Below are positions 77 through 47,806 of a stretch of 60,770 nucleotides of DNA, one piece after another. The stretch spans positions 12,177 through 72,946 of the forward strand of contig CAYJTP010000003.1 in the NCBI GenBank assembly GCA_964373175.1, read 5' to 3'. This stretch comes from an uncultured Planctomycetales bacterium. Its GTDB lineage: Bacteria; Omnitrophota; Gorgyraeia; Aquiviventales; Aquiviventaceae. Below the pieces are notes generated by a model. That model had not been told where the DNA came from. It worked only from the letters and a program-made list of their open reading frames with translations, and searched no databases. The position numbers and the translations under genes were made by a program. The first letter of the stretch is position 1, and every line of letters starts with the position of its first letter.

Positions 77-1372
77 ATGCAAGCGTTACGACAGACTGAT
101 CCAGAAATTTACGAAGCCCTCCAGCGCGAGCTCCAGCGTCAGCACGAGCACCTCGAGCTGATCGCGTCGGAGAACTTTACGAGTCTTTCGGTCTTGGAAG
201 CCCAAGGCTCTGTCCTGACCAACAAGTACGCGGAAGGCTATCCCCACGCGCGCTGGTATGGCGGGTGCGAGTTCGTCGACGTCGCCGAGCAGCTGGCGAT
301 CGACCGCGTCAAGGCGCTCTTCGGCGCTGAACACGCCAATGTCCAGCCCCATTCCGGCACGCAGGCCAACATCGCGGTCTTCTATGCGAGCCTGCAACCG
401 GGTGACAAGATCCTCGCCATGAGTCTGGCCCATGGGGGACACTTGTCGCATGGCCATCCAAAGAATTATTCTGGCAAGTACTTCACGATCGTCCCGTACG
501 GCGTGAACAAGACCACCGAGCAAATCGACTATGACGAGCTTGAAGCCCTAGCCAACGAACATCACCCGAAGATGGTGCTCGCGGGGTATTCCGCGTATCC
601 GCGCGTGTTGGATTTCAAGCGGTTTCGCGAGATCTGCGATCGCGTGGGGGCGATCCTCCTCGTCGACATGGCCCACTTTGCCGGGCTGGTGGCCGCCGGC
701 GTGTATCCCAACCCGACGCCGTATGCGGAGTTTGTCACCTCAACGACCCACAAGACCCTCCGCGGCCCTCGTGGAGGATTTATTTTGTGCAAGCAGCCTT
801 ACGCCAAGGCGATCGATTCGGCCGTCTTTCCCGGCACGCAAGGCGGACCGTTGATGCACGTCATCGCCGCGAAGGCCGTGTGTTTCTTGGAGGCCCAGAC
901 TCCGGCATTCAAAGCGAATCAACGGCAGGTCGTTGCCAACGCGAAAGCGCTGGCGAAGACCTTAGCGGATCGAGGCTATCGCATCGTCTCTGGCGGAACG
1001 GACAACCACTTACTGCTCGTGGACCTGACCCCCAAAGGCCTCACCGGCAAGGAAGCCCAAGAAACCCTCGATCAGGCCAAGATCACCGTCAACAAGAACG
1101 CGATCCCCTTCGATCCGCTTCCGCCCGCCAAGGCCAGCGGGGTCAGGTTGGGGACGCCGGCGGTAACCACGCGCGGGATGAAGGAACGTGAGATGGAGCA
1201 AATTGCCCAGCTCATTGACGAGGCGCTGGCGAACCGGACGGATGCGGGAAGACTTCAAGCCGTTCGCCGCGGAGTGGAGGAGCTCGTCGAGCGGTTTCCA
1301 CTGTACCCTGAGCTGCGGTCAACCGGACGATCAGAAGACAGAAGTCAGAAGACAGACATCAGATCGTCATGA
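77..1372 (+). CDS. glyA: serine hydroxymethyltransferase
   Basis: 431-aa ORF, SHMT-like over its full length, including the PLP-Lys region [15 protein letters not shown]. The last ~20 codons are encoded by a word-repeat hairpin arm. Confidence 0.95.
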
Positions 1373-1439
1373 GCGACTGGGCGTGGGTTATGTGGACTAC
1401 ACCGTCTTCTGTCTTCTGTCCTCTGTCTTCTGTCCTCTG
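1331..1439. repeat. word-repeat hairpin (CAGAAGAC/GTCTTCTG family)
   Basis: Left arm 1331-1364 and right arm 1404-1439, built from 7-9 nt units. The glyA stop lies in the loop. Related copies at 1-29, 22456-22612 and 55579-55654. Confidence 0.8.
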
Positions 1440-1447
1440 GACGATGA

Positions 1448-1557
1448 TCCCACCACCTGTTTGTGGTCTGCCTTTGGCAGACCAGACAATCCTCTTGAGG
1501 CGGTCTGAGGTGGTGGGGTTGTTCGCCGGTCTTCGACCGGCCAAACAGGTGGTGGGA
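1448..1557 (+). repeat. IR-bracketed start-codon cassette, copy 1 (before nrdR)
   Basis: Arms TCCCACCACCTG 1448-1459 and CAGGTGGTGGGA 1546-1557. Pairing extends inward (TTTG/CAAA). ATG at 1557. Confidence 0.85.
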
Positions 1558-2018
1558 TGAAGTGCCCCTTCTGCGGTCATCAGGAAGATAAAGTCGTCGA
1601 CTCGCGCGCCAGCGCCGAGGGGCTGGCCATCCGCCGGCGACGCGAGTGCCTGTCCTGTCGCAAGCGGTTCACGACCTATGAGCATGTCGAAGAGCAGCGA
1701 CTCATGGTCATCAAGAAGGACGGCCGTCGCGAGCCGTTTGACCGCAAGAAGCTGCTGAATGGTCTTGTGAAAGCGTGCGAGAAACGTCCGATCAGTATGG
1801 ACCGGCTTGAGCAAGTCGTGGAGGAGATTGAGCAAGATCTCTCCAGGAACTTTGAGCGGGAGGTTCCCTCACAAGAGATCGGGGAGCGCGTCATGAAGCG
1901 GCTCCACGCCCTGGATCCGGTGGCCTACGTCCGGTTTGCCTCGGTCTATCGCGAGTTCAAGGACGCTGAGCAGTTCATGCGCGAGCTCAAAGACCTCATC
2001 AGCCAGAAAGCGAGGTAA
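1557..2018 (+). CDS. nrdR: transcriptional repressor NrdR
   Basis: 153 aa. N-terminal zinc ribbon (CPFCG...CLSCRKRF) followed by an ATP-cone. The ATG lies in the right arm of IR cassette 1. Confidence 0.95.
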
Positions 2019-5264: not shown

Positions 5265-5273
5265 CGAACGCCT

Positions 5274-5335
5274 GTCCCGCCCTTTTGAGGACGGAGGTCC
5301 CAAGAGGGCGGGTGTCTTGACCAAAAGGGCGGGAC
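5274..5335. repeat. CCCGCCC-TTTTG palindromic element
   Basis: Perfect 14-bp arms GTCCCGCCCTTTTG / CAAAAGGGCGGGAC. Confidence 0.8.
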
Positions 5336-5398
5336 AAGTGGGAACCCCGGTTCGTCGACCGCGCAAGCGGTGGCTCATCAATCCAAGGACCAGAATCC

Positions 5399-6392: not shown

Positions 6393-6445
6393 GAAACCAG
6401 AAACCAGTAACCAGATGTTTTCTCTGGTTTCTGGTTACTGGTTAC
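6393..6445. repeat. word-repeat hairpin (AACCAG/CTGGTT family)
   Basis: GAAACCAGAAACCAGTAACCAGA-TGTTTTC-TCTGGTTTCTGGTTACTGGTTAC, just after the hisG stop. Related words at 48844-48872 and 51517-51566. Confidence 0.8.
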
Positions 6446-6472
6446 GTGGTTCGCATTGAGAGGAGGCGCAAC

Positions 6473-6683: not shown

Positions 6684-8177
6684 ATGGTGACCTCGACGAG
6701 ACTCATCTGGCTGCTGCTTTGCACACTCGGGGTGGGGGGATGCGCCCACGTGCCGTTGCAGAGCAGCCAAGAAGCCAAACGGAATGTGTACGCCTTGTAC
6801 ATGCGCGGGTTGATGCTCGAACGCTCGGCCCATCTGTCCGATGCGCTCGAGACGTATCAGCAGGCCCTGGAGCATGATTATGAGTCACCCTCCCTGTACG
6901 TGCGGATTGGCGCGACCTACGTCAAACTCGGGGAGATTCACCAAGCCCTCAAGTCGTTTCAGCGGGCGCTGACCCTCGATCCCTCTCACCGCGATGCCTT
7001 GCGGTGGGTGGCGATGCTCCACACCTCGCAGGGCGAGCTCGATGAGGCGATCCGCGCGTATGAACGCCTGATCGAGCAAGAGCCCACGGATCGCTTTGTG
7101 CTCAGCACCCTCGCCGATCTCTATGTGCTTCAAGGGCAACTCGAGCAGGCGGCCCACCTCTACGAGCGGCTCATCAAGGAATATGGCTCCTCGTCCCAGT
7201 TGCGCTTCAACCTGGGGGTGCTCTACGGGCGGCTCGGCCAGTACTCCTCAGCCATCCAGGAACTGTCCCGTGCGATGGAGCTGGCGCCCGACTCCATTGA
7301 GATTCGGGTCGTCTTGGGCCTGACCTACGAACTGAACAACCAACTGGACAAGGCCGCCGCGCATTTCGAAGACGCCATCCGCTTGGATCCCTTGAACCCA
7401 CGGCTCTACCTGCATGCTGCCCGGGTCTACGCGAGCCAGCAGCGAACCAAGGAAGCCATCGACGAATACGAGACGGCCTTGGACTTAGCCCCGAATGATC
7501 TCGAGGCACTGTTCGGGCTGGTGCGGTTATGGCTCGTGGACAAACAGTATGCCAAAGCTCAACACGTGATTGGCGAAAAACTTCCGAACGCCGCCCAACC
7601 GGCAGACCTCTATCTGATGCTCGGGGTGGTGTATCGCGAGGCCGACGCCCCGGCGGAAGCGCTGCGGGCGTTTGAACGAGCCGTGGCCCTCAACGGGACG
7701 TCCGCCCAAGCGCACTTCTACCTTGGGGCCCAGCTCGACCGCCTCCAGCGCAAACAGGAAGCCCGGCAGGAACTACGGCGTACGATTGAGCTCGATCCGA
7801 ACCACGCGGATGCGCTCAACTATTTAGGGTACCTCGATGCGGAGGCAGGCGTGAATCTCAAAGAAGCCAAGGCCTTGATCGAACGGGCCGTGGCGCTGGA
7901 TCCTGACAACGGGGCCTATCTCGATAGTCTGGGATGGGTCTCCTACCAACTGGGTGAGCTAGACGAGGCGATCCGCCAGCTTGAGCGCGCCGCCACACTC
8001 TTGGACACGGATCCGACGGTCTTCGATCATCTCGGGGATGCGTATCGGCGGCAAGGCAACCTCAAGAAGGCCCAAGCCGCCTGGGAGAACGCGCTGCGCC
8101 TCGATGCGAGCCTTGAGGTCGTGAAACACAAGCTGGAATCCCTCTTGCATCGGGACGTGATGGCGATTGCCCCATGA
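6684..8177 (+). CDS. TPR-repeat lipoprotein
   Basis: ATG 6684 gives a signal peptide with lipobox-like LGVGGC. More than 10 TPR-like repeats follow. The stop TGA sits in the left flank of IR cassette 2. Confidence 0.8.
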   Translation: MVTSTRLIWLLLCTLGVGGCAHVPLQSSQEAKRNVYALYMRGLMLERSAHLSDALETYQQALEHDYESPSLYVRIGATYVKLGEIHQALKSFQRALTLDPSHRDALRWVAMLHTSQGELDEAIRAYERLIEQEPTDRFVLSTLADLYVLQGQLEQAAHLYERLIKEYGSSSQLRFNLGVLYGRLGQYSSAIQELSRAMELAPDSIEIRVVLGLTYELNNQLDKAAAHFEDAIRLDPLNPRLYLHAARVYASQQRTKEAIDEYETALDLAPNDLEALFGLVRLWLVDKQYAKAQHVIGEKLPNAAQPADLYLMLGVVYREADAPAEALRAFERAVALNGTSAQAHFYLGAQLDRLQRKQEARQELRRTIELDPNHADALNYLGYLDAEAGVNLKEAKALIERAVALDPDNGAYLDSLGWVSYQLGELDEAIRQLERAATLLDTDPTVFDHLGDAYRRQGNLKKAQAAWENALRLDASLEVVKHKLESLLHRDVMAIAP

Positions 8178-8314
8178 TCCCCCCACCTGATGCGGGCTGC
8201 CGAAGGCAGCCCATGCAACGTGGAGTGATGGATGAGAGTGTTGAAATTCGGGTGGGACAACATCTGGTGTGTTGCATTGTCCCGCCTTCGGCGGGACAGC
8301 ATCAGGTGGTGGGA
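8178..8314 (+). repeat. IR-bracketed start-codon cassette, copy 2 (before transketolase N)
   Basis: Arms TCCCCCCACCTG 8178-8189 and CAGGTGGTGGGA 8303-8314. The upstream stop TGA is at 8175-8177. Confidence 0.85.
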
Positions 8315-9144
8315 TGACGAAACCTGATCTCACCGCGTTGCGGCGGCTGGCCGTTGAGTTACGGCAGGACATCTTGACGATGATTGCCAAGGCAGGCAGC
8401 GGCCATCCCGGCGGATCGCTCTCGATGGTGGAACTTCTCATCGGCCTGTACTGGTACGCGCTGCGGCATGATCCCAAGCATCCGTCGTGGCCGGGGCGGG
8501 ATCTCTTCTTGCTGTCGAAAGGTCATGGATGTCCGGCGCTCTATGCGGTCTTGGCGCATCGAGGCTATTTTCCGAAAGAGGAGCTCATGACGCTCCGACG
8601 CTATCCGACCCGATTGCAGGGGCACCCGGAAAAAGATTCGCCGCCAGGGGTGGAGATCGCCTCGGGGTCGCTTGGTCAAGGGCTCTCAATGGCCAACGGG
8701 ATTGCGCTCGCCGATCGCTTGGACGGCCGCACGCGGCGGATCTACTGTCTGCTGGGCGATGGGGAAATTCAGGAAGGCCAAGTGTGGGAAGCGGCGATGA
8801 CCGCCCACCATCACAAGCTGGAGAGCGTGTGCGCGATCATCGATGCGAATCAGTTGCAGCAAAACGGTCCGGTGAAAGAGATTCAAGATATCGAGCCGCT
8901 CGCCGATAAGTGGCGGGCGTTTGGGTGGCATGCGATTGAGATCGACGGCCATGACCTCGTCCGCGTGATCGACGCCTACGATGAGGCGAAGACCATCCGT
9001 GGCAAGCCTCAGGTGATTATCGCGCGAACGGTGAAGGGCAAAGGGGTTTCGTTTATGGAACTCAATCCCGCCTGGCATGGGGTGGCTCCCAAACCCGATG
9101 AATTGGACAAGGCGTTGAATGAGCTGCGGATGGTGAAGGTCTAA
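8314..9144 (+). CDS. transketolase, N-terminal (TPP-binding) subunit
   Basis: GSGHPGGSLS and GDGEIQEGQVWEA motifs. Start taken at the ATG in the right arm of IR cassette 2 (MTKPDLTALRRLA). Confidence 0.9.
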   Translation: MTKPDLTALRRLAVELRQDILTMIAKAGSGHPGGSLSMVELLIGLYWYALRHDPKHPSWPGRDLFLLSKGHGCPALYAVLAHRGYFPKEELMTLRRYPTRLQGHPEKDSPPGVEIASGSLGQGLSMANGIALADRLDGRTRRIYCLLGDGEIQEGQVWEAAMTAHHHKLESVCAIIDANQLQQNGPVKEIQDIEPLADKWRAFGWHAIEIDGHDLVRVIDAYDEAKTIRGKPQVIIARTVKGKGVSFMELNPAWHGVAPKPDELDKALNELRMVKV

Positions 9145-10672: not shown

Positions 10673-11686
10673 ATGCTGCGCCTCCTAGCTCCTGCCAAGC
10701 TGAATCTTTCCCTGCACGTCGTCGGGAAACGGCCTGACGGCTACCACGAGCTCGAAACGCTCTTTGAACGCCTCGATCTGGCTGACGAACTGACGTTGGC
10801 GCCCCAGCCTCAGGGGATGACGGTCACCTGCGACGATCCGAACCTTGACTGTGGACCTGAGAACCTCGTCACCCAAGCCGCCGCGTTGGTCCAAGAGACG
10901 TGTGGCGTTCAGCAAGGCGTTGCGATCCATCTCATCAAGCGGATTCCTATCGCAAGCGGCTTAGGGGGCGGCTCCTCAGATGCCGCGACGACGCTCATCG
11001 GTCTACGCCAGCTCTGGAACGTGCGACTCTCCCGAACGCAGCTCCTCGAATTGGCGGGTCGCCTTGGCAGCGACGTGCCCTTTTTCCTCGAGGAGGCGGC
11101 GTTTGCCATTGGCCGGGGACGCGGGGATCAGTGCGAGCCGCTGGATGGCGATCTGCCGACCCTGTGGCACGCGCTGGTGGTGCCCCCCGTGCGCCTGTCG
11201 ACGAAAGACGTGTACGCTGGGTTCGACGGACGCCGCCAAGAATCCCGCTTGACCCCGCCCCAATTTGCTAAGCCGAAACGGAAACTGTTACTCAAGATGT
11301 TTTGCCGAGACGATGCGGTTTACCGTGCTGGAGCCGAGTCGGAAAAATTGGGGCGGGGCTTGACAGAACCACCCCCCTCCATTACGATGTGCCTACACGC
11401 CTTGTGCAACGGCTCGCTCGGCGAGCTCGCCAAGGGATGTTCGAATGACCTCGAACCTGAGGCGATCCGGCGTTGTCCTGTCATTACGGAGATTCAGACC
11501 TGCCTGCAGCAAAGCGGGAGTCTTGTCGCACGCATCTCCGGGAGCGGACCCGCCGTCTTTGGACTCTGTCGTTCGCGTGACCATGCCAACACCGTGGCCC
11601 AGCAGCTTCGGCAGGCTGGCTCCCCATCGTGGTCGGTTCATGTGGTCAAGACGCAGCATGGGCGTCTAGCCGATGGAGATCACTGA
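10673..11686 (+). CDS. ispE: 4-diphosphocytidyl-2-C-methyl-D-erythritol kinase
   Basis: MLRLLAPAKLNLSLHV and the GHMP motif PIASGLGGGSSDAA. Carries a 37-codon in-frame palindromic insert (11253-11358). Confidence 0.9.
   Translation: MLRLLAPAKLNLSLHVVGKRPDGYHELETLFERLDLADELTLAPQPQGMTVTCDDPNLDCGPENLVTQAAALVQETCGVQQGVAIHLIKRIPIASGLGGGSSDAATTLIGLRQLWNVRLSRTQLLELAGRLGSDVPFFLEEAAFAIGRGRGDQCEPLDGDLPTLWHALVVPPVRLSTKDVYAGFDGRRQESRLTPPQFAKPKRKLLLKMFCRDDAVYRAGAESEKLGRGLTEPPPSITMCLHALCNGSLGELAKGCSNDLEPEAIRRCPVITEIQTCLQQSGSLVARISGSGPAVFGLCRSRDHANTVAQQLRQAGSPSWSVHVVKTQHGRLADGDH
11253..11358. repeat. palindromic element inserted in frame in ispE
   Basis: Perfect 14-bp arms CCCCGCCCCAATTT / AAATTGGGGCGGGG. 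5-bp direct repeat CTTGA at 11248-11252 and 11359-11363. Confidence 0.85.
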
Positions 11687-12110
11687 GGTTCGCGTGGCCT
11701 TGCGCGACCATCCGCAAACGCGCTTGAAGGCGTACGCCACCTTGACGTTCGACAACTGCTTTGTCGTGCGCAACGTGAAGATCATCGAAGGCAAACACGG
11801 GCTCTTTGTAGCGATGCCCTCGCGAAAACCCAAAACGAGTTGCCCCAACTGCCAGGCCAAAAATGACCTGGGCCACCGCTTTTGCAGCCAGTGCGGCGCG
11901 GCCTTGCCACGGCACACCCCCCCGCTCGCTGGGACGGGGGAGCTCGAGACGTCCGACGCGCTCTCCCATCGTGACATCGCGCATCCGATTACGATGGAGT
12001 TCCGGCAATACCTCCAGAAGAAGGTCCTGGAGGCCTACGAAGCGGAGCAATCACGGGGCGGCATCTCTCCCTCTCCGAGTGGCGCAGAAGGGGAGTATGA
12101 GGCGCTCTGA
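11673..12110 (+). CDS. spoVG: SpoVG family protein with zinc-ribbon insertion
   Basis: MEITEVRV..LKAYATLTFDNCFVVRNVKIIEG..GLFVAMPSRK ... HRDIAHPIT. CPNC..CSQC is inserted between the two conserved blocks. Confidence 0.9.
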   Translation: MEITEVRVALRDHPQTRLKAYATLTFDNCFVVRNVKIIEGKHGLFVAMPSRKPKTSCPNCQAKNDLGHRFCSQCGAALPRHTPPLAGTGELETSDALSHRDIAHPITMEFRQYLQKKVLEAYEAEQSRGGISPSPSGAEGEYEAL

Positions 12111-12885
12111 CCGCGTTGAGGCGATTCGCTTACGCCAACATGGCGCAACCTATCAGGACATCCTCAAACATGTTGGGGTTGCAAAATCAACCCTCTGGCG
12201 GTGGTTCAAGGCAGAAGGGTTCGTTGAGACACGCCCTCAGCGTTTGACGGAGTTAAAACGGCAGGCGCAGCGAAGGGGCGCGATCGTCGTTCGAGAGAGA
12301 AGGGTTCAACGAACCCAGGCCATCATTGAGCAAGCGAAGCGAGAGGTTGGTACGTTGACCGAGCGCGATCTCTTCATGCTCGGCATCGCCTTCTATTGGG
12401 CAGAGGGTTCGAAGCAAAAGCCGCACAATGTCTCCGCGAGTGTGATTTTTTCCAACTCAGATCCAAGAGCGATCAAGATCTTTCTCACATGGCTTCAAGC
12501 GAGTTGTCTGATCAGTCTCAATGACGTGACGTTTGAGATCTACCTTCATGAGACGGCAGACGCGAGGAAGGCCCAATCATTCTGGGCCGAGCAGTTGAAC
12601 CTCTCCCTTCGAACGTTTCAGACCATTCGCTGGAAACGCCACGCCATTCGGTCTCGACGGAAGAACATCGGTGATGCGTATCACGGCTTGGTCCGGGTGC
12701 GTGTCCATCGCAGCGCGAACCTCAACCGGAGAATTGCGGGATGGATCGAGGGTATCTGCCAACGTGTTGGGGAGTCGGCTAACGGTAAGCCATCAGGCTT
12801 TGGACCTGAGTATCCTGGTTCGATTCCAGGCTCCCCAGCCAACTCGGCGCTGGGGCCAACGCAACTGAAGGATTGTCACTCATGA
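12097..12885 (+). CDS. HTH + single-motif LAGLIDADG-like homing-endonuclease-like protein
   Basis: N-terminal resolvase-type HTH (GATYQDILKHVGVAKSTLWRWFK). LGIAFYWAEGSK...VIFSNSDPRAIKIFLTWL resembles the LAGLIDADG core. The ORF has no stop until after it has crossed tRNA-Gln. GC looks lower than in neighbouring genes. Confidence 0.5.
   Translation: MRRSDRVEAIRLRQHGATYQDILKHVGVAKSTLWRWFKAEGFVETRPQRLTELKRQAQRRGAIVVRERRVQRTQAIIEQAKREVGTLTERDLFMLGIAFYWAEGSKQKPHNVSASVIFSNSDPRAIKIFLTWLQASCLISLNDVTFEIYLHETADARKAQSFWAEQLNLSLRTFQTIRWKRHAIRSRRKNIGDAYHGLVRVRVHRSANLNRRIAGWIEGICQRVGESANGKPSGFGPEYPGSIPGSPANSALGPTQLKDCHS
12768..12841 (+). tRNA. tRNA-Gln (anticodon TTG), CCA encoded
   Basis: Hand-folded cloverleaf. 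Acceptor stem TGGGGAG/CTCCCCA (U1-A72, G73). D stem GGCT/AGCC. Anticodon stem TCAGG/CCTGA with loop CTTTGGA. T stem CCTGG/CCAGG with loop TTCGATT. Confidence 0.9.
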
Positions 12886-14380: not shown

Positions 14381-15340
14381 ATGCCAACGCGCAACAGCGA
14401 CTTAGCGATTTTCAGCGGGAACGCCAACCCGACGCTCGCCAGAGCGGTGTGCCGGCGTCTGAAGACCAAGCTCTCCAACTGCCTCGTCGGTCGATTCAGT
14501 GACGGGGAAATCCGGGTCAAGATCAACGAGAACATTCGTGGCAAGGATGTGTTTGTCATCCAGCCAACCTGCCCACCGTCCAACGACAATCTGATGGAAC
14601 TGCTCATCATCATCGATGCGAGCCGTCGGGCGTCGGCGCGGCGCATCACGGCGGTCATCCCGTATTACGGCTACGCGAGGCAGGACCGCAAGGACCAGCC
14701 TCGAGTGCCCGTGACTGCAAAGCTCGTCGCGAATCTCATTACCACGGCCGGGGCGGACCGGGTCCTCACGATGGACCTCCACGCCGGGCAGATCCAAGGG
14801 TTCTTCGATATTCCCCTGGATCATCTCTATGCGGTGACGGTGTTTGAGCAGTACATCAGACGCAAGCGGCTCGCCCCGCTCGTCGTGGTCTCTCCCGACG
14901 TCGGTGGGATCAAGATGGCCCGGGCGTATGCCAAGCGGCTGGAGGCGGGGCTGGCGATTGTGGACAAGCGCCGCAAAACCCCGGAGTCCATCGAGGCCAT
15001 GCACATCCTCGGGGAGGTCCAAGGGAAGTGTTGTCTGCTGGTTGATGACCTGATCGCCACGGGCAGCTCCATCCTCGAGGCGGCGAGAGCCTTGAAGCGC
15101 GCTGGAGCGAAAACCATCTATGGAGCCGTGACCCACGCGGTGCTCTCAGGTCCGGCGGTGTCGAACATCGCCAGTTCCCCGTTACAAGAGTTCATCGTGA
15201 CCGATACCATCCCACTGCCCGAGGACAAACGTCATCGCAAGCTCAAGGTCCTGTCAGTCGCCCCGCTCTTGGGCGAGGCGATTCGGCGGATTCACGATGA
15301 GCGGTCCATCAGCTCGCTCTTCGATGGAGTATCCGGATGA
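14381..15340 (+). CDS. prs: ribose-phosphate pyrophosphokinase
   Basis: DLHAGQIQGFFDIP and VDDLIATGSS motifs, 319 aa. Confidence 0.95.
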   Translation: MPTRNSDLAIFSGNANPTLARAVCRRLKTKLSNCLVGRFSDGEIRVKINENIRGKDVFVIQPTCPPSNDNLMELLIIIDASRRASARRITAVIPYYGYARQDRKDQPRVPVTAKLVANLITTAGADRVLTMDLHAGQIQGFFDIPLDHLYAVTVFEQYIRRKRLAPLVVVSPDVGGIKMARAYAKRLEAGLAIVDKRRKTPESIEAMHILGEVQGKCCLLVDDLIATGSSILEAARALKRAGAKTIYGAVTHAVLSGPAVSNIASSPLQEFIVTDTIPLPEDKRHRKLKVLSVAPLLGEAIRRIHDERSISSLFDGVSG

Positions 15341-16128
15341 GCCCCAAGAAACCCAGCGGTGAACAACTGGCTGAACTCGTGGCGAAACGACGCACGACAG
15401 CGGGGACACGGGCCGTTGGCCGGTTGCGTCGGGAAGGCTTGATCCCCGGCGTGGTGTATGGCAAAACGACCTCCCCGACGCCCGTGGTGATCAGCCATCG
15501 GGATCTCGTGAAATTCCTCCACGCCAGGGCTGGTGAGCATGGGTTGGTCAAACTATCCGTCGAGGCGGACCCCGCCCTTTTGGGACGATCCGCAGAGGTG
15601 TCTCGCAGCCAAAAGGGCGGGGCGTGGCAGAAACCAGTCCTGATCAAGCATCTGCAGCGCGATCCGGTCACTGGGGAGATCACCCATGTGGACTTCCACG
15701 CGATTACGCTGACCGAGCAGATTCGCATCAAGATCCCCATCGTCTTGAAGGGTGAGCCGGTGGGGGTCAAGCAAGAGGGCGGGGTGCTCGAGCATTTCTT
15801 GCGCGACATCGAAGTCGAGTGTCTGCCCACCGCCATTCCCAAACAGGTGGAGTATGACGTCAGTGCGCTGAAGATCGGGGAGACGATCCATGTCCGGGAT
15901 CTGGCCCCGCCCGAGGGGGCACGGATGACGACAGACCCCGAAGGGGTGATTGCCTCAGTGCTGGCGCCGAAGGAAGAAAAGGTGGAAGCGGTCGCCGAAG
16001 CCGTGACGGAGCCGGAGGTGATTCGCGAGAAGAAACCGGAAGCGGAAGGTGAGGCGGCCGAAGAGAAGCCTGAGAAAGCTGAGAAACCTGAGAAACCCGA
16101 GAAGGCCGAGAAGAAAGACGACAAGTAA
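15337..16128 (+). CDS. rplY: 50S ribosomal protein L25/Ctc (general stress form)
   Basis: RRTTAGTRAVGRLRREGLIPGVVYG...HVDFH. ATGA overlap with prs. Contains an in-frame palindromic insert and an EKP/EKA repeat tail. Confidence 0.9.
   Translation: MSPKKPSGEQLAELVAKRRTTAGTRAVGRLRREGLIPGVVYGKTTSPTPVVISHRDLVKFLHARAGEHGLVKLSVEADPALLGRSAEVSRSQKGGAWQKPVLIKHLQRDPVTGEITHVDFHAITLTEQIRIKIPIVLKGEPVGVKQEGGVLEHFLRDIEVECLPTAIPKQVEYDVSALKIGETIHVRDLAPPEGARMTTDPEGVIASVLAPKEEKVEAVAEAVTEPEVIREKKPEAEGEAAEEKPEKAEKPEKPEKAEKKDDK
15570..15622. repeat. palindromic element inside rplY coding sequence
   Basis: Perfect 14-bp arms CCCCGCCCTTTTGG / CCAAAAGGGCGGGG. Confidence 0.8.
16063..16116. repeat. 6 x 9-bp imperfect tandem repeat (GAGAARSCN)
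   Basis: Encodes the EKPEKAEKPEKPEKAEK tail of L25. Confidence 0.8.
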
Positions 16129-16141
16129 CGGGGATGGATGA

Positions 16142-16297
16142 TCCCACCACCTGTCGCCGGTGGCACTTCATGGAGAGGGCTCAATGGTCGATTGCGTTTG
16201 TGCGCCACATGAACCACGTCACGCCACCGTGGCCGGTGAGCAGTTTTCAGGGGGCGGCCAGGGCTCGCGGAACGCGAGCCTGCGCCAGGTGGTGGGA
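16142..16297 (+). repeat. IR-bracketed start-codon cassette, copy 3 (before pth)
   Basis: Arms at 16142-16153 and 16286-16297. ATG at 16297. Confidence 0.85.
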
Positions 16298-16902
16298 TGA
16301 AACTCATCGTGGGCCTTGGCAATGTCGGGCAGCCCTATGAGGGTACGCGACACAATGTGGGTTTCGAGGTGGTCCGGCGACTGGCCAGAACACGCCGGGT
16401 TCAGTGGAAACCGAAATTCAAAGCGCGTGAAACGATCGCACTGTCTGGGGATTGGAAACCCGGCCACGCCGTGGTTCGGCTGTTCCTCCCGCAACTCATG
16501 ATGAATCAGTCGGGGGAAGCGTTGGCCACTGCCGCTGAACGACCGGTCCTTCCTCAGGATATGCTGATTGTGTGTGATGACGTCAATCTCCCCTTGGGGA
16601 CCCTGCGCTTGAGGCCAAAAGGGAGCGACGGGGGGCACCATGGGTTGGCTTCCTGTCTTGAGGTCCTGGGGACCCACGCGGTGGCTCGCTTGCGGATTGG
16701 CGTTGGGGCAATGCCCCTGCCGAGAGACCTGACCGAGTTTGTCTTATCGCCATTCGACGCGCAGGAGCGTCCGACGGTCCATCAGATGATCGAACAGGCT
16801 GCGGTGGCGTGTGAACTGTGGGCGACACAAGGGATTGAGGTGGCGATGAATCGTGTGAACCCCGCCAAATGGCGGGATCATGGGGGCGGGGTGAACGCGT
16901 AA
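16297..16902 (+). CDS. pth: peptidyl-tRNA hydrolase
   Basis: MKLIVGLGNVG..Y..TRHNVGF. The ATG lies in the right arm of IR cassette 3. Confidence 0.93.
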   Translation: MKLIVGLGNVGQPYEGTRHNVGFEVVRRLARTRRVQWKPKFKARETIALSGDWKPGHAVVRLFLPQLMMNQSGEALATAAERPVLPQDMLIVCDDVNLPLGTLRLRPKGSDGGHHGLASCLEVLGTHAVARLRIGVGAMPLPRDLTEFVLSPFDAQERPTVHQMIEQAAVACELWATQGIEVAMNRVNPAKWRDHGGGVNA

Positions 16903-25274: not shown

Positions 25275-26114
25275 ATGCCTGATGCGTGTGCGGTGATCGC
25301 GGGAGCTGGCTCGTTTCCCCGTCATGTGGCGCAGGAAGCCAGACGCCAAGGCCTGACGGTGGTGGGGATCGGGCTTCAAGGCTGGGTCGATCGTGACTTT
25401 GCTCAGCATGTCGATGTGTATGAGGAGATCGCGATTGGGCAACTGAAACGCCTCATCGACCGGCTGGATGCTCACCACGTGCGCCAAGCCGTGATGGCGG
25501 GGAAAGTCACGAAAGAAATCTTGTTTGATTCGCGCGTCCGCTTCGATCCTGAGGCCCTGGGCATTGTGACGCATGTGAAGGAGTTTTCCGTCAACGCGCT
25601 GTTGGGGGCGCTGGCTGCGCGTCTTGCCAAGGCCGGGATCACGTTGCTGGATTCCTCGACGTTCCTCAAGCCCAACCTCTGCCCGAAGGGCGTGTTGACC
25701 AGGCGGGAACCGACGCATGAGGAGCAGGAAGACATCCGCCTGGGAATGCAGGCCGCTCGGCACCTCGCGCAGTTGGATATCGGCCAGACCGTCGTCGTGA
25801 AGCATCGGGTCGTCGTGGCGGTCGAGGCCTTGGAAGGGACCGACGCGGCCATTCAACGAGCCGGCCACCTGGCCGGGCGGGACCTCGTCGTCATCAAGAT
25901 GGCCTCCCCCACCCAAGACATGCGCTTCGATCTGCCCATCCTTGGTCCCCAGACCATCGCGGTGGCCATCGCCTCGGGGGTTCGGTGTCTGGCGGTGGAA
26001 GCCGCAAAGACGCTGCTGCTTGAACGAGACGCGCTGATCGCCCACGCCGACGACGCTAACCTCAGTCTCGTGGGCGTTGAAATCCCTGATCCGGTGCACA
26101 CGGATCGGACATGA
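25275..26114 (+). CDS. lpxI: LpxI family (DUF1009) UDP-2,3-diacylglucosamine hydrolase
   Basis: AVIAGAGSFP...DIGQTVVVKHRVVVAVEALEGTDAAIQRAG. The stop TGA sits in the left flank of IR cassette 4. Confidence 0.78.
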   Translation: MPDACAVIAGAGSFPRHVAQEARRQGLTVVGIGLQGWVDRDFAQHVDVYEEIAIGQLKRLIDRLDAHHVRQAVMAGKVTKEILFDSRVRFDPEALGIVTHVKEFSVNALLGALAARLAKAGITLLDSSTFLKPNLCPKGVLTRREPTHEEQEDIRLGMQAARHLAQLDIGQTVVVKHRVVVAVEALEGTDAAIQRAGHLAGRDLVVIKMASPTQDMRFDLPILGPQTIAVAIASGVRCLAVEAAKTLLLERDALIAHADDANLSLVGVEIPDPVHTDRT

Positions 26115-26256
26115 TCCCCCCACCTAGCTTCCCCCCCGGCTGTCGCCGGCGTCGGGCCGGGGGGGCCGACCTCGTGGGAAGCGAAGTATTGATTCGCCTT
26201 CCCGCCGTTGGCGGGATCCGCCAGAGGCGCGATCGGCGAATAGACAGGTGGGGGGA
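26115..26256 (+). repeat. IR-bracketed start-codon cassette, copy 4 (before rhomboid)
   Basis: Arms TCCCCCCACCTA 26115-26126 and CAGGTGGGGGGA 26245-26256. The upstream stop TGA is at 26112-26114. Confidence 0.8.
26131..26165. repeat. GC palindrome shared with 36593-36624 (opposite orientation)
   Basis: CCCCCCCGGCTGTCGCCGGCGTCGGGCCGGGGGGG. Its reverse complement matches 36593-36624 with 1 mismatch over 32 nt. Confidence 0.8.
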
Positions 26257-26936
26257 TGATCCCGGTTCGTGATACCATTCCCTCCAACCGCACCGCGTGG
26301 GTGGTTCGCGCCGTGCTCCTGGCCAACGTTGGGCTGTTCTTCCTGGAGTTGCGGCAAGGCGCTGCGGTTGAGACGATGCTCTATCGGTTTGGGGTCGTGC
26401 CGGCCGACTGGGAGTTGAGTACCCTCCACGACGTCTTCCAATGGCCTCGGCTGATCGGGACGCTGATCACCTCGCAGTTTCTGCATGGTGGCTTGCTGCA
26501 TTTAGGATCCAATATGCTCTATCTCTGGATCTTCGGGGACAACGTTGAGGATCTGTTAGGGCACGGGCGCTTCCTGTTGTTGTATCTCGGCAGCGGCATC
26601 GCGGCGGGGCTGGTCCAGTTGGCGATGCAGCCGCAAGCGACGGTGCCGATGATTGGCGCAAGCGGGGCGATCGCCGGCGTGTTGGGGGCGTATTTCCTGT
26701 TGTTCCCGTTTGCCCGGATCGTCACGCTCATTCCCTGGTTTTTCTTCTGGCAGTTCGTGGAGCTCCCGGCGTTTGTGTTTTTAGGATTCTGGTTTGTCCT
26801 CCAGTGGCTCCAAGGGATGACGACGATTGGCCAGATGGTCCATCTGGGCGGAGTGGCGTGGTGGGCCCATGTCGGGGGATTCGTTGGCGGACTGGTCTTT
26901 GCGGTGAATCTGCGCCCTCGCCGACGCTATTTTTAA
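26256..26936 (+). CDS. rhomboid family intramembrane serine protease
   Basis: FLHGGLLHLGSNMLYLWIFG and GASGAIAGVLGAY motifs, 6 TM helices. The ATG lies in the right arm of IR cassette 4. Confidence 0.85.
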   Translation: MIPVRDTIPSNRTAWVVRAVLLANVGLFFLELRQGAAVETMLYRFGVVPADWELSTLHDVFQWPRLIGTLITSQFLHGGLLHLGSNMLYLWIFGDNVEDLLGHGRFLLLYLGSGIAAGLVQLAMQPQATVPMIGASGAIAGVLGAYFLLFPFARIVTLIPWFFFWQFVELPAFVFLGFWFVLQWLQGMTTIGQMVHLGGVAWWAHVGGFVGGLVFAVNLRPRRRYF

Positions 26937-31214: not shown

Positions 31215-31302
31215 TATACGGGCACCACAGGCGTTCAGCAAGTCTTCCAACTGTTTTCCACGTGGCATCTTGGGTATACTTGACGCGTTGGAGGGATCAT
31301 GA

Positions 31303-31451
31303 TCCCACCACCTGTGCCGGCCCCGCCTCTCGGCGGGGCCCGAATGCCAACACAGGTTCGTGAGGTGTGGATCATGGGTCAGCCGCTGCATTCGTCGCGG
31401 CGGTGATGTCGGCGAGACTCCGCAAGCCGCCGTAAGGCGCAGGTGGTGGGA
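31303..31451 (+). repeat. IR-bracketed start-codon cassette, copy 5 (before glpK)
   Basis: Arms at 31303-31314 and 31440-31451. ATG at 31451. Confidence 0.85.
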
Positions 31452-32935
31452 TGATTCTGGCCATTGACCAAGGCACAACCGGAACCAGCGTGTTGGCGTT
31501 CGACCGCAAGGGTCGGGTCATCGCCCAGGGCTATGAGGAACTGCCCCAATATTTTCCCAAGCCGGGCTGGGTGGAACATGATCCAGAGGACATGCTGGCT
31601 GTGACCCTGCGGGTGATCAAGCGGACGCTTGACCGCGCCCATCTTCGCGCCACACAGCTTCTCGCTATCGGGATCACGAACCAGCGCGAGACGACCGTGC
31701 TCTGGGATCGGCGGACCGGACGGTCCGTGGCCAAGGCAATCGTGTGGCAGTGCCGGCGGACCGCCCCGATGTGTGAACGCTTGAAACGCCGTGGCCTTGA
31801 ACCGACAGTGCGTCGCAAGACGGGTCTGGTCCTCGATGCCTATTTTTCAGGCACCAAGGTGCGCTGGTTCCTCGACAATCTCCGAGGACTTGCCGCACGA
31901 GCGAAGCGGGGCGAGATTGCCTTCGGCACCGTCGACAGCTGGCTGCTCTGGCACTTGACCGGCGGCCGCATCCATGCCACGGACTACACGAATGCCTCGC
32001 GCACCCTGCTGTATAACATCCGCGCCTTGAGCTGGGATGACGACCTGCTGCGAATGTTCGCCATCCCGCGCACGCTCCTTCCAGCCGTGAAGTCGTCCAG
32101 CGGGCTCTTCGGGACCACGACGCGCATCGGGCCCCTTGCTGCAGGGATCCCGATTGCCGGAATCGCGGGTGACCAACAAGCTTCCCTGGTGGGCCACGGA
32201 TGCCTTGAGGCGGGCGATGCCAAAAACACCTACGGCACGGGATGTTTTCTCCTGCTGCAGACGGGCGCTCGCGTCGTGCTGAGTCGGCACGGGCTCATCA
32301 CGACCTTAACCTACGGGGGAAGGGAGTCGCCAAGCTATGCCTTGGAAGGCAGCGTCTTTATTGCCGGTGCCGCGATTCAATGGTTGCGGGACGGCCTGAA
32401 GGTGATCAAGACCGCCGCCGAAACGGAAGGAATCGCCAAGGGCGTCAAGAGTACCGGCGGGGTCTATGTGGTTCCTGCATTTGTGGGACTGGGCGCGCCC
32501 TATTGGGACATGCACGCGCGAGGAGGGATTGTCGGCCTCACCAGGGGGACGACTCGAGATGTGCTGGTGCGCTCGACGTTGGAGTCGCTCGCCTATCAGA
32601 CCCGTGACGTCGTGGAGGCGATGCAGCGCGATAGCGGCATCCGTCTCAAGCGACTTCAGGTCGACGGGGGCGCAGCCCGCAATAACTGGCTCATGCAGTT
32701 TCAGGCGGATCTGTTGGGGATTGACGTCGTGCGGCCCGCGCTGGTGGCCAATACCGCCAAGGGCGCGGCGTTGTTGGCCGGGATCGCCATGGGGTGGTGG
32801 GATCCAAGACGGCTGTCGACCTTGATGGGTGCGCCTGAGCGGATCTTTCGTCCACGGATGAACGCCCAAGAGCGCCAACGCCTGTACGCAGGGTGGCACG
32901 AGGCGGTTCAGCGGATGCGAACGCAGCGTCGGTAA
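31451..32935 (+). CDS. glpK: glycerol kinase
   Basis: MILAIDQGTTGTS...GITNQRETTVLWD. The ATG lies in the right arm of IR cassette 5. Confidence 0.95.
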   Translation: MILAIDQGTTGTSVLAFDRKGRVIAQGYEELPQYFPKPGWVEHDPEDMLAVTLRVIKRTLDRAHLRATQLLAIGITNQRETTVLWDRRTGRSVAKAIVWQCRRTAPMCERLKRRGLEPTVRRKTGLVLDAYFSGTKVRWFLDNLRGLAARAKRGEIAFGTVDSWLLWHLTGGRIHATDYTNASRTLLYNIRALSWDDDLLRMFAIPRTLLPAVKSSSGLFGTTTRIGPLAAGIPIAGIAGDQQASLVGHGCLEAGDAKNTYGTGCFLLLQTGARVVLSRHGLITTLTYGGRESPSYALEGSVFIAGAAIQWLRDGLKVIKTAAETEGIAKGVKSTGGVYVVPAFVGLGAPYWDMHARGGIVGLTRGTTRDVLVRSTLESLAYQTRDVVEAMQRDSGIRLKRLQVDGGAARNNWLMQFQADLLGIDVVRPALVANTAKGAALLAGIAMGWWDPRRLSTLMGAPERIFRPRMNAQERQRLYAGWHEAVQRMRTQRR

Positions 32936-37262: not shown

Positions 37263-37513
37263 ACGACCTCCTGATATTTCTGGCTATTGTGACAGGCGGT
37301 GACCACTTGTCAAGTGGAGCTCCACCCCGCCACGGCGGGGTGGCACCCTGCAACCACGCCCCGCGTGGGGCGACATCCCGCCCACGCGCACGATGCGGCC
37401 ACGCGGGCCCACGGCCGAAGGCCGTGGCCCGATGGCGGGGTCGACCGCAGGGATGGCCGATCCATGATCCGGCGGACGGATTGGGATCCCAACGGTACCA
37501 TCGCGTCGGTAGT

Positions 37514-45294: not shown

Positions 45295-45313
45295 CTCTCG
45301 CCTTCGGCAGCCC
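45220..45313. repeat. 94-bp perfect direct repeat, copy A
   Basis: Identical to 47536-47629. Covers 19 nt of leader plus codons 1-25 of the short PilX-like gene. Confidence 0.95.
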
Positions 45314-45331
45314 AACCACCCTTCGGGTGGC

Positions 45332-45380
45332 GTTTACAGTTTACCGTGTACCGTTCACCGTACACCGTTCACGGTACACC
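45332..45380. repeat. word-repeat element (ACCGTACAC family)
   Basis: GTTTACAGTTTACCGTGTACCGTTCACCGTACACCGTTCACGGTACACC, in the leader of the short PilX-like gene. Confidence 0.7.
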
Positions 45381-45393
45381 GCCCGTTGGGTTT

Positions 45394-45425
45394 GTGGCTT
45401 TGCGCCATACGGTTGCCCGTATGTT
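45394..45425 (-). promoter_or_regulatory. conserved 32-nt leader element, copy A (short PilX-like gene)
   Basis: Identical to 47740-47771. On the minus-strand RNA it contains CAUACGG-GCAA-CCGUAUG (7-bp stem, GNRA loop). Confidence 0.5.
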
Positions 45426-47771: not shown

Positions 47772-47806
47772 ACCCTTTCGGAGCGAGCCGTTCTTTGGTC
47801 ATTACG

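What the first reader, a model, noticed from the sequence alone, without database searches (positions are those of the whole stretch)
11248..11363. A MITE-like palindromic element is inserted in frame inside ispE with a 5-bp target duplication
Seen in sequence: perfect 14-bp terminal inverted repeats CCCCGCCCCAATTT (11253-11266) and AAATTGGGGCGGGG (11345-11358) are flanked by direct repeats CTTGA (11248-11252 and 11359-11363). The element plus one duplication is 111 bp, which is exactly 37 codons with no stop. It adds ..TPPQFAKPKRKLLLKMFCRDDAVYRAGAESEKLGRGL.. between the conserved STKDVY and NDLEPEA regions. From memory, E. coli IspE has a much shorter linker there. Established knowledge: in-frame palindromic insertions in essential genes are known from Rickettsia (RPEs). 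This copy has the clearest transposition footprint in the window.
Basis: partly seen in the sequence, partly recalled or inferred. Interest (0 to 1): 0.7.

Follow-up and report, generated by a model that had tools for sequence, protein, structure and literature searches.

The report
In-frame palindromic insert in ispE
A 106-bp hairpin-forming DNA element with a 5-bp target duplication sits in frame in a floppy surface loop of the essential enzyme IspE of an Omnitrophota bacterium, exactly at the edge of what looks like an ancient promoter hidden inside the gene; this kind of insert is known from Rickettsia, but this family, host and insertion hotspot are new.

Summary
There are perfect 14-bp inverted repeats (11253-11266 / 11345-11358), CTTGA direct repeats on both sides, and 111 nt (37 codons) with no stop. 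The window has six perfect inverted repeats of 14 bp or more, against 0.03 expected.

The gene is ispE of a Candidatus Omnitrophota bacterium. The insert maps to a loop with no counterpart in solved IspE structures, and AlphaFold predicts it disordered.

Orthologue DNA shows clean empty sites (…TTGACA…). It also shows filled sites with the same termini: 88 bp in L001 and a 20-bp perfect palindrome with TTGA repeats in L207. One-armed remnants (L082, L083) and unrelated palindromes (L085, L206) occupy the same codon position.

The window holds related palindromes. One lies in frame inside ribosomal protein L25 and is homologous to an intergenic copy. So a MITE/RPE-like in-frame insertion is well supported. 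Mobility of this particular copy is not shown: no second copy was found.

Unexpectedly, the duplicated TTGA is the start of a TTGACA-N17-TAnnAT motif. Its synonymous sites are frozen in 12 of 12 close orthologues and in about 47 of 80 distant ones. In the close clade a structured conserved block follows it.

Verdict: a new member of a known kind, with an interesting hotspot context.

The parts
10673..11686 (+). ispE coding sequence (337 aa) that hosts the element
   Evidence: ORF list; Pfam GHMP_kinases_N and GHMP_kinases_C; solved IspE structures; homologues named IspE from Candidatus Omnitrophica
11248..11252 (+). Left direct repeat CTTGA (target-site duplication)
   Evidence: Sequence. Empty sites in L208, L209 and L210 carry a single (C)TTGA
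11253..11266 (+). Left terminal inverted repeat CCCCGCCCCAATTT (encodes T-P-P-Q-F)
   Evidence: The same CCCCGCCCCAA is present in L001, and CCCCGCCCC in L207
11267..11344 (+). 78-nt interior of the element, unique to this lineage
   Evidence: No similarity to any fetched locus or to the rest of the window. No protein shares three 5-mers with the encoded peptide. Only marginal similarity to the L001 interior, z = 2.1
11345..11358 (+). Right terminal inverted repeat AAATTGGGGCGGGG (encodes K-L-G-R-G)
   Evidence: It is also present without a left arm in the insert-free orthologues L082 (29 of 30 nt identical) and L083
11359..11363 (+). Right direct repeat CTTGA
11360..11388 (+). Promoter-like TTGACA-17 nt-TACGAT; the -35 hexamer is the Leu230-Thr231 codons and overlaps the right direct repeat
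   Evidence: Promoter scan, 10 of 12. TTG ACA in 12 of 12 close orthologues although TTGACA is 1 of 99 Leu-Thr dicodons in the window. About 47 of 80 distant ispE loci have it at the homologous codons
11395..11476 (+). Conserved block with frozen synonymous sites that folds into a three-helix structure; it contains a 26-nt stretch (11459-11484) invariant in the 9 orthologues of the codon alignment (a few single-base differences appear in L209 and L210, added later)
   Evidence: Codon alignment; RNAalifold; pair counts of 99% paired with 5 compensated pairs, 0 of 500 shuffles; the covariance model finds it only in the close clade; no Rfam match

Best explanation
The segment 11253-11358 is a non-autonomous, hairpin-forming repeat element of the MITE / Rickettsia-palindromic-element kind. 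It integrated at the TTGA of the Leu-Thr codons TTG ACA of ispE and duplicated (C)TTGA. Element plus duplication is 111 nt with no stop in the ispE frame, so the gene stays intact and the element is translated as 37 extra residues in a disordered surface loop between helix 177-193 and helix 237-246. Because the target is duplicated, an intact TTGACA is regenerated next to the downstream TAnnAT, so the promoter-like motif embedded in ispE is not destroyed. The same site recurs in other Omnitrophota lineages because it combines a DNA-level conserved TTGA target with a loop that tolerates extra residues. With time such elements decay. Loss of the interior leaves mini-palindromes (L207, L084). Loss of the left part leaves a right-arm remnant (L082, L083). 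Slippage between the direct repeats restores the empty site. Shown here: the TIR/TSD anatomy, the empty and filled sites, preservation of the reading frame, the loop location, and related dispersed palindromes in the same genome. Inferred: the transposition mechanism and the enzyme, translation of the insert, the direction of the decay series, and activity of the promoter.
For: Anatomy and statistics. Empty versus filled orthologous sites: L208, L209 and L210 read ...TTGACA..., while L001 reads ...GC CTTGA[CCCCGCCCCAAC..64 nt..GTTGGGGCAGGG CTTGA]CAGG, with flanks nearly identical to its sister L210. L207 reads GCC TTGA CCCCGCCCCGCGGGGCGGGG TTGA CA, a 24-nt in-frame insertion. All variants are multiples of three without stops. 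Loop location. The genome is rich in palindromic repeats: family 2 has 6 copies with a co-varying 3-bp TSD (TGA, or TGG on both sides), and there are 15 CCCGCC-cored hairpins against 0.7 expected. A second in-frame palindrome lies in the L25 gene (15570-15622). It is absent from solved bL25 structures, is a mini-hairpin in the L083 orthologue, and is homologous throughout to the intergenic copy at 5273-5336, z = 7.7. In-frame MITE and RPE insertions are documented (review PMC10969869).
Against: No second copy of this element (termini plus interior) is in the 60.8-kb window or in any fetched locus, and no protein in 5.8 billion shares its peptide. No transposase with matching ends is in the window. 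Every element with these termini that I saw is at this one site in ispE. The arms are base-for-base conserved between lineages with about 60% nucleotide identity, while the interiors are barely alignable. That pattern fits selection or recombination as well as recent transposition. Right-arm-only remnants exist but left-arm-only ones do not. L084 and L206 differ almost only in a 115-nt patch here, so homologous recombination can move these segments.
Confidence: 0.65

Rival explanations
1. The palindromes are not classical cut-and-paste MITEs. They would be REP/REPIN- or IS200/IS605-type hairpin elements placed by a single-strand-specific HUH (Y1/RAYT-like) enzyme 3' of a fixed short target (TTGA), and/or spread between lineages by homologous recombination anchored in the invariant flanking blocks. 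On this view the 'TSD' is the target plus an identical cleavage sequence at the element's right end.
For: The same TTGA-adjacent position is used in every case. The genome has a strongly over-represented class of short GC-rich CCCGCC hairpins resembling REPs. The L25 and 5273 copies show no TSD. The L084/L206 patch shows recombination in this very region. The distribution on the IspE tree is patchy.
Against: No RAYT or IS200/IS605 transposase was seen in the window. The 4-5-bp direct repeats are perfect in three independent elements, which is what a staggered-cut TSD gives. Family 2 in the same genome shows a co-varying TSD.
Confidence: 0.17
2. The hairpin is a host cis-regulatory feature, not selfish DNA. 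A stem-loop or protein-binding palindrome would be maintained immediately upstream of the intragenic promoter: the right arm and its A-tract occupy about -36 to -52, the UP-element position. It would tune transcription of the downstream spoVG-glmU-prs-rplY-pth genes, and the protein insert would be a by-product.
For: The insert abuts the 5' edge of a block with frozen synonymous sites that starts exactly at TTGACA. The right arm is retained alone in several lineages while the left never is. Arm sequences are conserved at the DNA level across lineages. Unrelated palindromes occupy the same spot in L085 and L206. One arm position shows a compensated change between the window and L001 (T-A to C-G).
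Against: Many close relatives, and most Omnitrophota IspE genes, have no palindrome at all, so it is dispensable. Nothing upstream of TTGACA is conserved among empty-site orthologues. The TSD-type direct repeat is unexplained by a regulatory origin. The hairpin has no U-tract and is not terminator-like.
Confidence: 0.12
3. The palindrome arose in situ by a replication template switch (inverted duplication of the pre-existing GGGGCGGGG next to TTGACA), with no mobile element involved.
For: The right arm exists on its own in insert-free orthologues (L082, L083). That could be the ancestral state from which a left arm was copied.
Against: The left flank carries a direct copy (CTTGA), not an inverted copy (TCAAG), of the right flank. 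The 78-nt interior is not derived from nearby sequence. A simple in-frame deletion turns the full element into the L082 form. The sister pair L210/L001 shows a clean insertion into a site that lacks GGGGCGGGG.
Confidence: 0.04
4. It is a chance inverted repeat in an ordinary variable linker, or a metagenome assembly artefact.
For: The IspE linker is length-variable in this phylum. Palindromes can break or confuse assemblers: the closest relative, P0023, has a stop and a contig end here.
Against: A perfect inverted repeat of 14 bp or more is expected 0.03 times per window, and this one also has a 5-bp direct repeat. The same architecture appears in independent assemblies from other samples (L001 from JGI, L207 from NCBI). 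The reading frame is intact.
Confidence: 0.02

Closest known systems
Rickettsia palindromic elements (RPEs)
   Same: They are palindromic elements of about 100-150 bp inserted in frame into conserved, often essential, protein genes, and are translated as extra peptide segments compatible with the fold. They are shared and decaying among orthologues (review PMC10969869; the rest from my own knowledge of Ogata et al. 2000).
   Different: The host phylum differs (Candidatus Omnitrophota). No sequence relationship was tested or is expected. Here there is a clear 4-5-bp target duplication and a perfect 14-bp TIR. The same codon position is occupied recurrently by same-termini and by unrelated palindromes. 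The site coincides with a promoter-like hexamer.
Bacterial MITEs that occur intragenically (ERIC/IRU, Correia/NEMIS, Coxiella QMITEs, Anabaena MITEs)
   Same: They are small, have TIRs and a TSD, encode no transposase, can form in-frame fusions with host ORFs, and can carry or create promoter elements (PMC10969869; PMC3184786 and PMC5896051 listed).
   Different: Those families are defined by many dispersed copies and, in several cases, a known parent IS. For the ispE element, no second copy and no parent IS were found in the available sequence.
REP / REPIN elements mobilised by RAYT transposases
   Same: They are GC-rich hairpins that are strongly over-represented in a genome. The window has 15 CCCGCC-cored hairpins against 0.7 expected, some nested in larger elements. 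The REPIN concept is in PMC3116915 (listed).
   Different: REPs are extragenic, 20-40 nt, and lack a TSD. The ispE element is 106 bp, intragenic, and has direct repeats. No RAYT gene was seen in the window.
Internal prs promoter inside E. coli ispE (ychB)
   Same: It is a promoter for the downstream gene embedded in the ispE coding sequence. The best sigma-70-like site inside E. coli ispE is TTGATG-18-TAGAAT at nt 665, giving a leader of about 300 nt to prs. That agrees with my recollection of the published 302-nt prs leader (Hove-Jensen; Post et al. 1993; from memory, not verified here).
   Different: It lies about 100 nt further downstream, and the E. coli codons homologous to TTGACA are CTC CCG. 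The motif found here is at the Leu-Thr codons and is shared by many other phyla.

Membership tests
MITE (prokaryotic miniature inverted-repeat transposable element) | Small size with no transposase gene | tested here: met
   The element is 106 bp and has no separate ORF beyond the ispE frame
MITE (prokaryotic miniature inverted-repeat transposable element) | Terminal inverted repeats | tested here: met
   The TIRs are perfect over 14 bp, with 0.03 such repeats expected per window
MITE (prokaryotic miniature inverted-repeat transposable element) | Target-site duplication, with an empty site in relatives | tested here: met
   CTTGA is present on both sides. Single TTGACA empty sites are seen in L208, L209 and L210, and L210/L001 form an empty/filled sister pair. 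L207 has TTGA repeats
MITE (prokaryotic miniature inverted-repeat transposable element) | Multiple dispersed copies of the same family in one genome | tested here: inconclusive
   No second copy was found in the 60.8-kb window, and the rest of the genome is not available. Related palindromes with a CCCGCC core do exist, including the homologous pair 5273-5336 / 15570-15622
MITE (prokaryotic miniature inverted-repeat transposable element) | A cognate autonomous IS with matching TIRs | tested here: inconclusive
   None was found in the window. The HTH ORF 12082-12885 matches only transposase-type HTH domains, far below the family cut-offs. The whole genome is not testable
Rickettsia palindromic elements (RPE-1 to RPE-10) | Member of one of the RPE sequence families of Rickettsia genomes | tested here: not met
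   The host is Candidatus Omnitrophota. Sequence comparison with RPE consensus sequences was not possible (none on hand). This is an analogue, not a member
Rickettsia palindromic elements (RPE-1 to RPE-10) | In-frame insertion in a conserved protein gene at a structurally tolerant position | tested here: met
   The insert is 37 codons with no stop. The loop is absent from solved IspE structures and predicted disordered
Rickettsia palindromic elements (RPE-1 to RPE-10) | The insert is transcribed and translated with the host protein | not testable with these tools
   This needs metatranscriptome or metaproteome data
REP / REPIN | Short extragenic GC-rich palindromes in high copy, associated with a RAYT gene | tested here: not met
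   The ispE element is intragenic, 106 bp long and has direct repeats. No RAYT was seen among the annotated window ORFs. The short CCCGCC hairpins in the window may qualify as REP-like
IS200/IS605-derived palindromic elements (PATE-like) | Insertion 3' of a fixed tetra- or pentanucleotide, no true TSD, subterminal hairpins at each end | tested here: inconclusive
   A fixed TTGA lies 5' of the element in the window, L001 and L207. However, pairing is between the two ends rather than within each end, and no TnpA gene is available

The most novel reading that the evidence does not exclude
The IspE loop would be a landing pad created by an ancient intragenic promoter. The Leu-Thr codons are really a -35 hexamer (TTGACA-N17-TAnnAT) conserved across many bacterial phyla. 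In this Omnitrophota clade, mobile hairpins would be repeatedly captured, swapped (also by recombination) and partly retained immediately upstream of it because they modulate transcription of the downstream spoVG-glmU-prs-rplY-pth genes and of a structured RNA leader that starts at about 11395. That would make it an exchangeable promoter-upstream module living inside the coding sequence of an essential enzyme.
Probability: 0.2. Interest if true: 0.75.

Novelty: new member of a known kind. Interest (0 to 1): 0.5.

Why it matters
The finding extends the 'selfish DNA inside protein-coding genes' phenomenon, best known from Rickettsia, to an uncultivated phylum. It offers an unusually clear natural series at one orthologous site: empty, full, collapsed and one-armed forms. 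That series could be used to study how palindromic inserts are gained, tolerated and lost in essential genes.

It also shows that annotation pipelines and protein alignments in such genomes will contain repeat-derived loop segments, here in IspE and in ribosomal protein L25.

The context may matter more than the element. The target is the -35-like hexamer of a promoter-like motif with frozen synonymous sites, shared by ispE genes of many phyla. If real, this would be a striking case of a regulatory signal dictating two conserved amino acids of an enzyme, and it would explain why this position is a hotspot.

Tried and rejected
**Searches that did not help**
- Genome-collection scan with the IspE alignment. 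It was useless for close orthologues but served later as a cross-phylum control.
- Metagenome scan with the two-arm pattern CCCCGCCCCAA-N55-85-TTGGGGCRGGG. More than 120 hits came back, but they are dominated by an unrelated 91-101-nt family (GGCCC-CCCCGCCCCAATTCTGGGGAGC...) in the JAABU* assemblies. None shares the window's interior or its CTTGA flanks, so the scan says nothing about mobility of this element.
- Peptide search with the insert plus short flanks: no candidates.
- Rfam, by E-value on 10-13 kb and by gathering score on the whole window: nothing at the element or at the conserved block.
- The covariance model of the conserved block does not detect distant ispE loci.
- DNA for the closest relative, P0023, could not be retrieved.

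**Ideas rejected**
- Overlapping ORFs as the cause of the frozen synonymous sites. The + frame ORF 11445-11669 starts at an ATG that is not conserved (AAT GAC becomes AAC GAT in orthologues). The antisense ORF 11320-11484 shares its third codon positions with ispE, so it would not freeze them (inference).
- L083 as an empty site for the family-2 element between L25 and pth. The junctions are not cleanly comparable.
- E. coli as carrier of the same TTGACA site. Its homologous codons are CTC CCG, and its internal promoter-like site lies about 100 nt downstream.
- The HTH ORF 12082-12885 as the transposase. Only a weak N-terminal HTH similarity was found.
- A template-switch origin. The left flank is a direct copy of the right flank, not an inverted one.
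Full report
**1. The observation**

The arm pattern occurs only at these two places in the window. Perfect inverted repeats of 14 bp or more within 220 nt occur six times in the window, against 0.03 expected from Markov shuffles. This is the only one flanked by a direct repeat longer than 3 bp. Either strand folds into a long hairpin closed by the 14-bp stem, at -45 kcal/mol and z about -2.6.

The ORF 10673-11686 reads through the element. Element plus one repeat is 111 nt, or 37 codons, with no stop.

**2. The host gene and organism**

The ORF is IspE. It matches Pfam GHMP_kinases_N and GHMP_kinases_C, and the best solved structures are IspE from Thermus, Mycobacterium and E. coli. The closest database proteins are IspE of Candidatus Omnitrophica MAGs at 55-63% identity.

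Gene order is transketolase - ispE - spoVG - (HTH ORF, tRNA-Gln) - glmU - prs - rplY/ctc - pth.

**3. Where the insert falls in the protein**

Against M. tuberculosis IspE, query residues 202-239 have no counterpart. Against T. thermophilus IspE, 74 query residues face 28.

An AlphaFold2 model built on 37 orthologues has mean pLDDT 88. Residues 194-236 are coil between helices 177-193 and 237-246, and residues 200-227 have pLDDT below 50. So the insert is an unstructured loop in an otherwise confidently folded enzyme.

**4. Orthologues at the protein level**

The linker between ...LSTKxxY and HALRNG is a length hotspot in Omnitrophota IspE. It is typically 17-21 residues but reaches 126.

The invariant feature is L-T. 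Immediately upstream of L-T some lineages carry inserts:
- a 'LTPPQ…KLG(R/Q)G-LT' type (the window and P0031);
- collapsed forms (P0024 LTPP-RGAG-LT; P0004);
- right-end-only forms (P0008 QKLGRG-LT, P0007, P0002, P0014, P0017);
- a second type, 'FDPST…VEGFD-LT' (P0083, P0114, P0064, P0111, P0044);
- other forms.

**5. Orthologues at the DNA level (twelve loci)**

*Empty sites*
- L208: AGG GTC TTG ACA GAG
- L209: ACG GAC TTG ACA
- L210: TCC GCC TTG ACA GGG

*Filled sites*
- Window: CGC TTGA[CCCCGCCCCAATTT..78..AAATTGGGGCGGGG CTTGA]CA
- L001: GCC TTGA[CCCCGCCCCAAC..64..GTTGGGGCAGGG CTTGA]CA. Its upstream flank is almost identical to that of its sister L210, so this is a textbook empty/filled pair.
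- L207: GCC TTGA[CCCCGCCCCGCGGGGCGGGG TTGA]CA, a perfect 20-nt palindrome plus TTGA, 24 nt in frame.
- L084: a degenerate mini-palindrome flanked by GGCTTG repeats.

*One-armed forms*
- L082 (…TCG CAA AAA TTG GGG CGG GGC TTG ACA GAA) is 29 of 30 nt identical to window 11339-11368.
- L083 keeps GGGCGGGGC.
- A single in-frame deletion converts the window form into the L082 form.

*Other palindromes at the same spot*
- L085 carries nested TCGAA-based inverted repeats flanked by TTCGAC.
- The 18-nt insert of L211 resembles part of the L085 element.
- L206 carries two 9-bp hairpins.

All of these variants keep the reading frame.

**6. Phylogenetic distribution**

On a neighbour-joining tree of 75 IspE proteins with the linker removed, the palindrome-bearing sequences are scattered. 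Each has a close relative with an empty site: P0031 next to P0067, P0024 next to P0021, and the window next to P0003. This needs either repeated gain, repeated precise loss, or lateral exchange.

Lateral exchange is real here. L084 and L206 are 97% identical, and 49 of their 53 differences lie in one 115-nt patch covering the linker, the spacer after TTGACA and a downstream hairpin.

**7. Is it a repeat family?**

No other copy of this element was found in the window, in any fetched locus, or as a peptide. The metagenome scan with the arm cores returned mainly an unrelated abundant family and was uninformative.

The genome nevertheless clearly hosts palindromic repeats:
- **Family 2.** Six copies of 112-158 bp with TIR (A)TCCCACCACCTG. 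There are 17 arm matches against 1.6 expected. The copies sit at gene junctions, where their ends provide TGA and ATG. The flanking triplet co-varies: TGA on both sides, but TGG on both sides in copy 53138.
- **CCCGCC/GGCGGG-cored hairpins.** Fifteen have perfect arms of 8 bp or more, against 0.7 expected.
- **A palindrome in the L25 gene.** CCCCGCCCTTTTGG-25-CCAAAAGGGCGGGG at 15570-15622 lies in frame in the ribosomal protein L25/Ctc gene. It encodes about 19 residues that are absent from solved bL25 structures. In the L083 orthologue the same position holds the mini-hairpin GCCCCGCC-GAT-GGCGGGGC. This palindrome is homologous along its whole length to an intergenic copy at 5273-5336 (z = 7.7). 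That copy starts right after a TTGACA-18-TACAAT promoter-like site.

So dispersed palindromes that land in frame in essential genes are a property of this genome. The ispE element shares their C-rich arm core.

**8. The unexpected context**

The duplicated TTGA is the start of TTGACA-17-TACGAT (11360-11388). This is one of only two sigma-70-like sites in the 3 kb scanned.

In the window's genes TTG is 18% of Leu codons, ACA is 10% of Thr codons, and TTGACA is 1 of 99 Leu-Thr dicodons. Yet 12 of 12 orthologues use TTG ACA and keep TAnnAT 17 nt downstream. They do so through amino-acid changes (ITM, ISM, LTM, VTM, LNI, LSM), always with AGC for Ser and a T-ending preceding codon.

Synonymous sites are frozen from TTGACA for about 125 nt. 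Third-position agreement is 0.74-0.85 there, against 0.56-0.66 elsewhere in the gene. The region includes a 26-nt stretch (11459-11484) identical in all nine orthologues of the codon alignment. L209 and L210, added later, each show a few single-base differences within that stretch.

This block folds into a three-helix structure beginning at 11395, about where a transcript from that promoter would start. In it, 99% of cells are paired, against 32-47% when the partners are slid. Five pairs show compensatory double changes, which 0 of 500 shuffles reach. It has no Rfam match, and a covariance model finds it only in the close clade.

The hexamer pair itself is far older. At the protein-aligned homologous codons, about 47 of 80 ispE loci from many phyla read TTGAC(A) + 17 nt + a TAnnAT-like hexamer. 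The score distribution is bimodal. The exact regex hits 19 times in 94 kb, against about 0.3 expected, always at +540 to +610 of the gene.

E. coli lacks the motif at this position. It does have a promoter-like site about 100 nt downstream that fits the known internal prs promoter (the literature on that promoter is from memory).

Promoter activity here is inferred, not shown.

**9. Interpretation**

I add three points:
- The target is a DNA-level conserved hexamer. That explains why the same site is hit or retained in different lineages, and why the duplication leaves the motif intact.
- The orthologues show a decay series: full, collapsed, one-armed, empty.
- Recombination between lineages contributes to the patchy distribution.

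Three things remain open: the enzyme and mechanism (a DDE-type staggered cut versus HUH single-strand insertion); whether this copy is or was mobile in this genome; and whether the retained right arm with its A-tract, lying at about -36 to -52 of the promoter-like motif, has been co-opted. The asymmetric retention of the right arm and the cross-lineage identity of the arms are not fully explained by a purely selfish-element model.

**10. Novelty and score**

In-frame palindromic inserts in essential genes are an established phenomenon (RPEs, intragenic ERIC and QMITE elements; PMC10969869). No paper in the searched library links such elements to Omnitrophota. I classify the element as a new member of a known kind and score interest at 0.5.

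The promoter-like motif and the structured block embedded in ispE were noticed in passing. They may deserve a separate, higher-priority follow-up.

Noticed in passing
window 11360-11388, and the homologous codons in L001, L082-L085, L206-L211 and L002-L081: The Leu-Thr codons of IspE are TTGACA, followed 17 nt later by TAnnAT, in 12 of 12 close orthologues and about 47 of 80 distant ispE genes from many phyla. This holds despite unfavourable codon usage (TTGACA is 1 of 99 Leu-Thr dicodons in the window). It looks like an ancient intragenic sigma-70-type promoter whose -35 dictates two conserved residues. E. coli lacks it at this position.
   Followed up: partly
window 11395-11476 (26-nt near-invariant stretch at 11459-11484): A block with frozen synonymous sites lies inside the ispE 3' half. 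It folds into a three-helix structure that starts at the predicted transcription start. 99% of cells are paired and 5 pairs show compensatory changes. Hairpin P2 alternates between GCTCGC..GCGAGC and GCCCCG..CGGGGC. There is no Rfam match, and it is detected only in the close Omnitrophota clade.
   Followed up: partly
window 15570-15622 (inside the L25/ctc gene 15337-16128) and window 5273-5336: A second in-frame palindrome (CCCCGCCCTTTTGG-25-CCAAAAGGGCGGGG) adds about 19 residues to a loop of ribosomal protein L25. The L083 orthologue has a mini-hairpin GCCCCGCC-GAT-GGCGGGGC at the same spot. The element is homologous throughout (z = 7.7) to an intergenic copy at 5273-5336, which begins right after a TTGACA-18-TACAAT promoter-like site upstream of hisG.
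   Followed up: partly
window 1447-1558, 8177-8315, 16141-16298, 26114-26257, 31302-31452, 53138-53280: A six-copy MITE-like family with TIR (A)TCCCACCACCTG and subterminal GTCCCGCC hairpins. The copies sit exactly at gene junctions, so that their ends supply a TGA stop for the upstream gene and an ATG start for the downstream gene. The flanking triplet co-varies (TGA on both sides; TGG on both sides in the last copy), which indicates a 3-bp target duplication.
   Followed up: partly
whole window (for example 2812-2831, 8278-8298, 31319-31340, 37322-37343, 53243-53262): Short GC-rich hairpins with a CCCGCC/GGCGGG core are strongly over-represented: 15 with perfect arms of 8 bp or more, against 0.7 expected. 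They form a REP-like class, and some copies lie inside ORFs.
   Followed up: no
L084:1501-2478 versus L206:615-1607: Two ispE genes are 97% identical and differ almost only in one 115-nt patch covering the linker palindrome, the -35/-10 spacer and hairpin P2 (49 of 53 differences). This looks like a recombination tract anchored in the invariant blocks.
   Followed up: partly
P0023 (ENA contig in ERZ27297570; no DNA retrievable): In the closest relative (89% identity), ispE stops right after ...GQESR, exactly at the left edge of the insert. A second ORF in another frame then runs to the contig end about 73 nt later. This could be a frameshifted copy of the element or an assembly break in the palindrome.
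   Followed up: no
window 11673-12110: The SpoVG homologue carries a zinc-ribbon insertion (residues about 54-79; Pfam Zn_Ribbon_1 and DZR) within the SpoVG domain.
   Followed up: no
window 12082-12885 and 12768-12841: An ORF with an N-terminal transposase-like HTH (HTH_23), otherwise unmatched, lies between spoVG and glmU. Its 3' end overlaps a tRNA-Gln(TTG) gene. It is absent from the spoVG-glmU junction of L083, and a similar HTH_23 gene follows ispE in L210.
   Followed up: partly
window 45303-45438 and 47619-47784 (minus strand): Two c-di-GMP-I riboswitch aptamers were found. The 15-bp inverted repeat at 47635-47736 lies inside the second one, so it is riboswitch structure rather than a repeat element.
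   Followed up: no
window 1332-1439, 6393-6452, 54676-54739, 55584-55640: Intergenic inverted arrays built from short 7-nt-like units (CAGAAGA/CAGAAGT, AACCAGA, GGATTGC/GGATTTG, CAGACCT). Their nature is unknown.
   Followed up: no
L086-L205 (metagenome contigs, mostly JAABU* assemblies): An abundant palindromic element family of about 91-101 nt with about 30-bp termini, GGCCC-CCCCGCCCCAATTCTGGGGAGC. There are often several copies per contig. It is unrelated to the window element except for the searched core.
   Followed up: no
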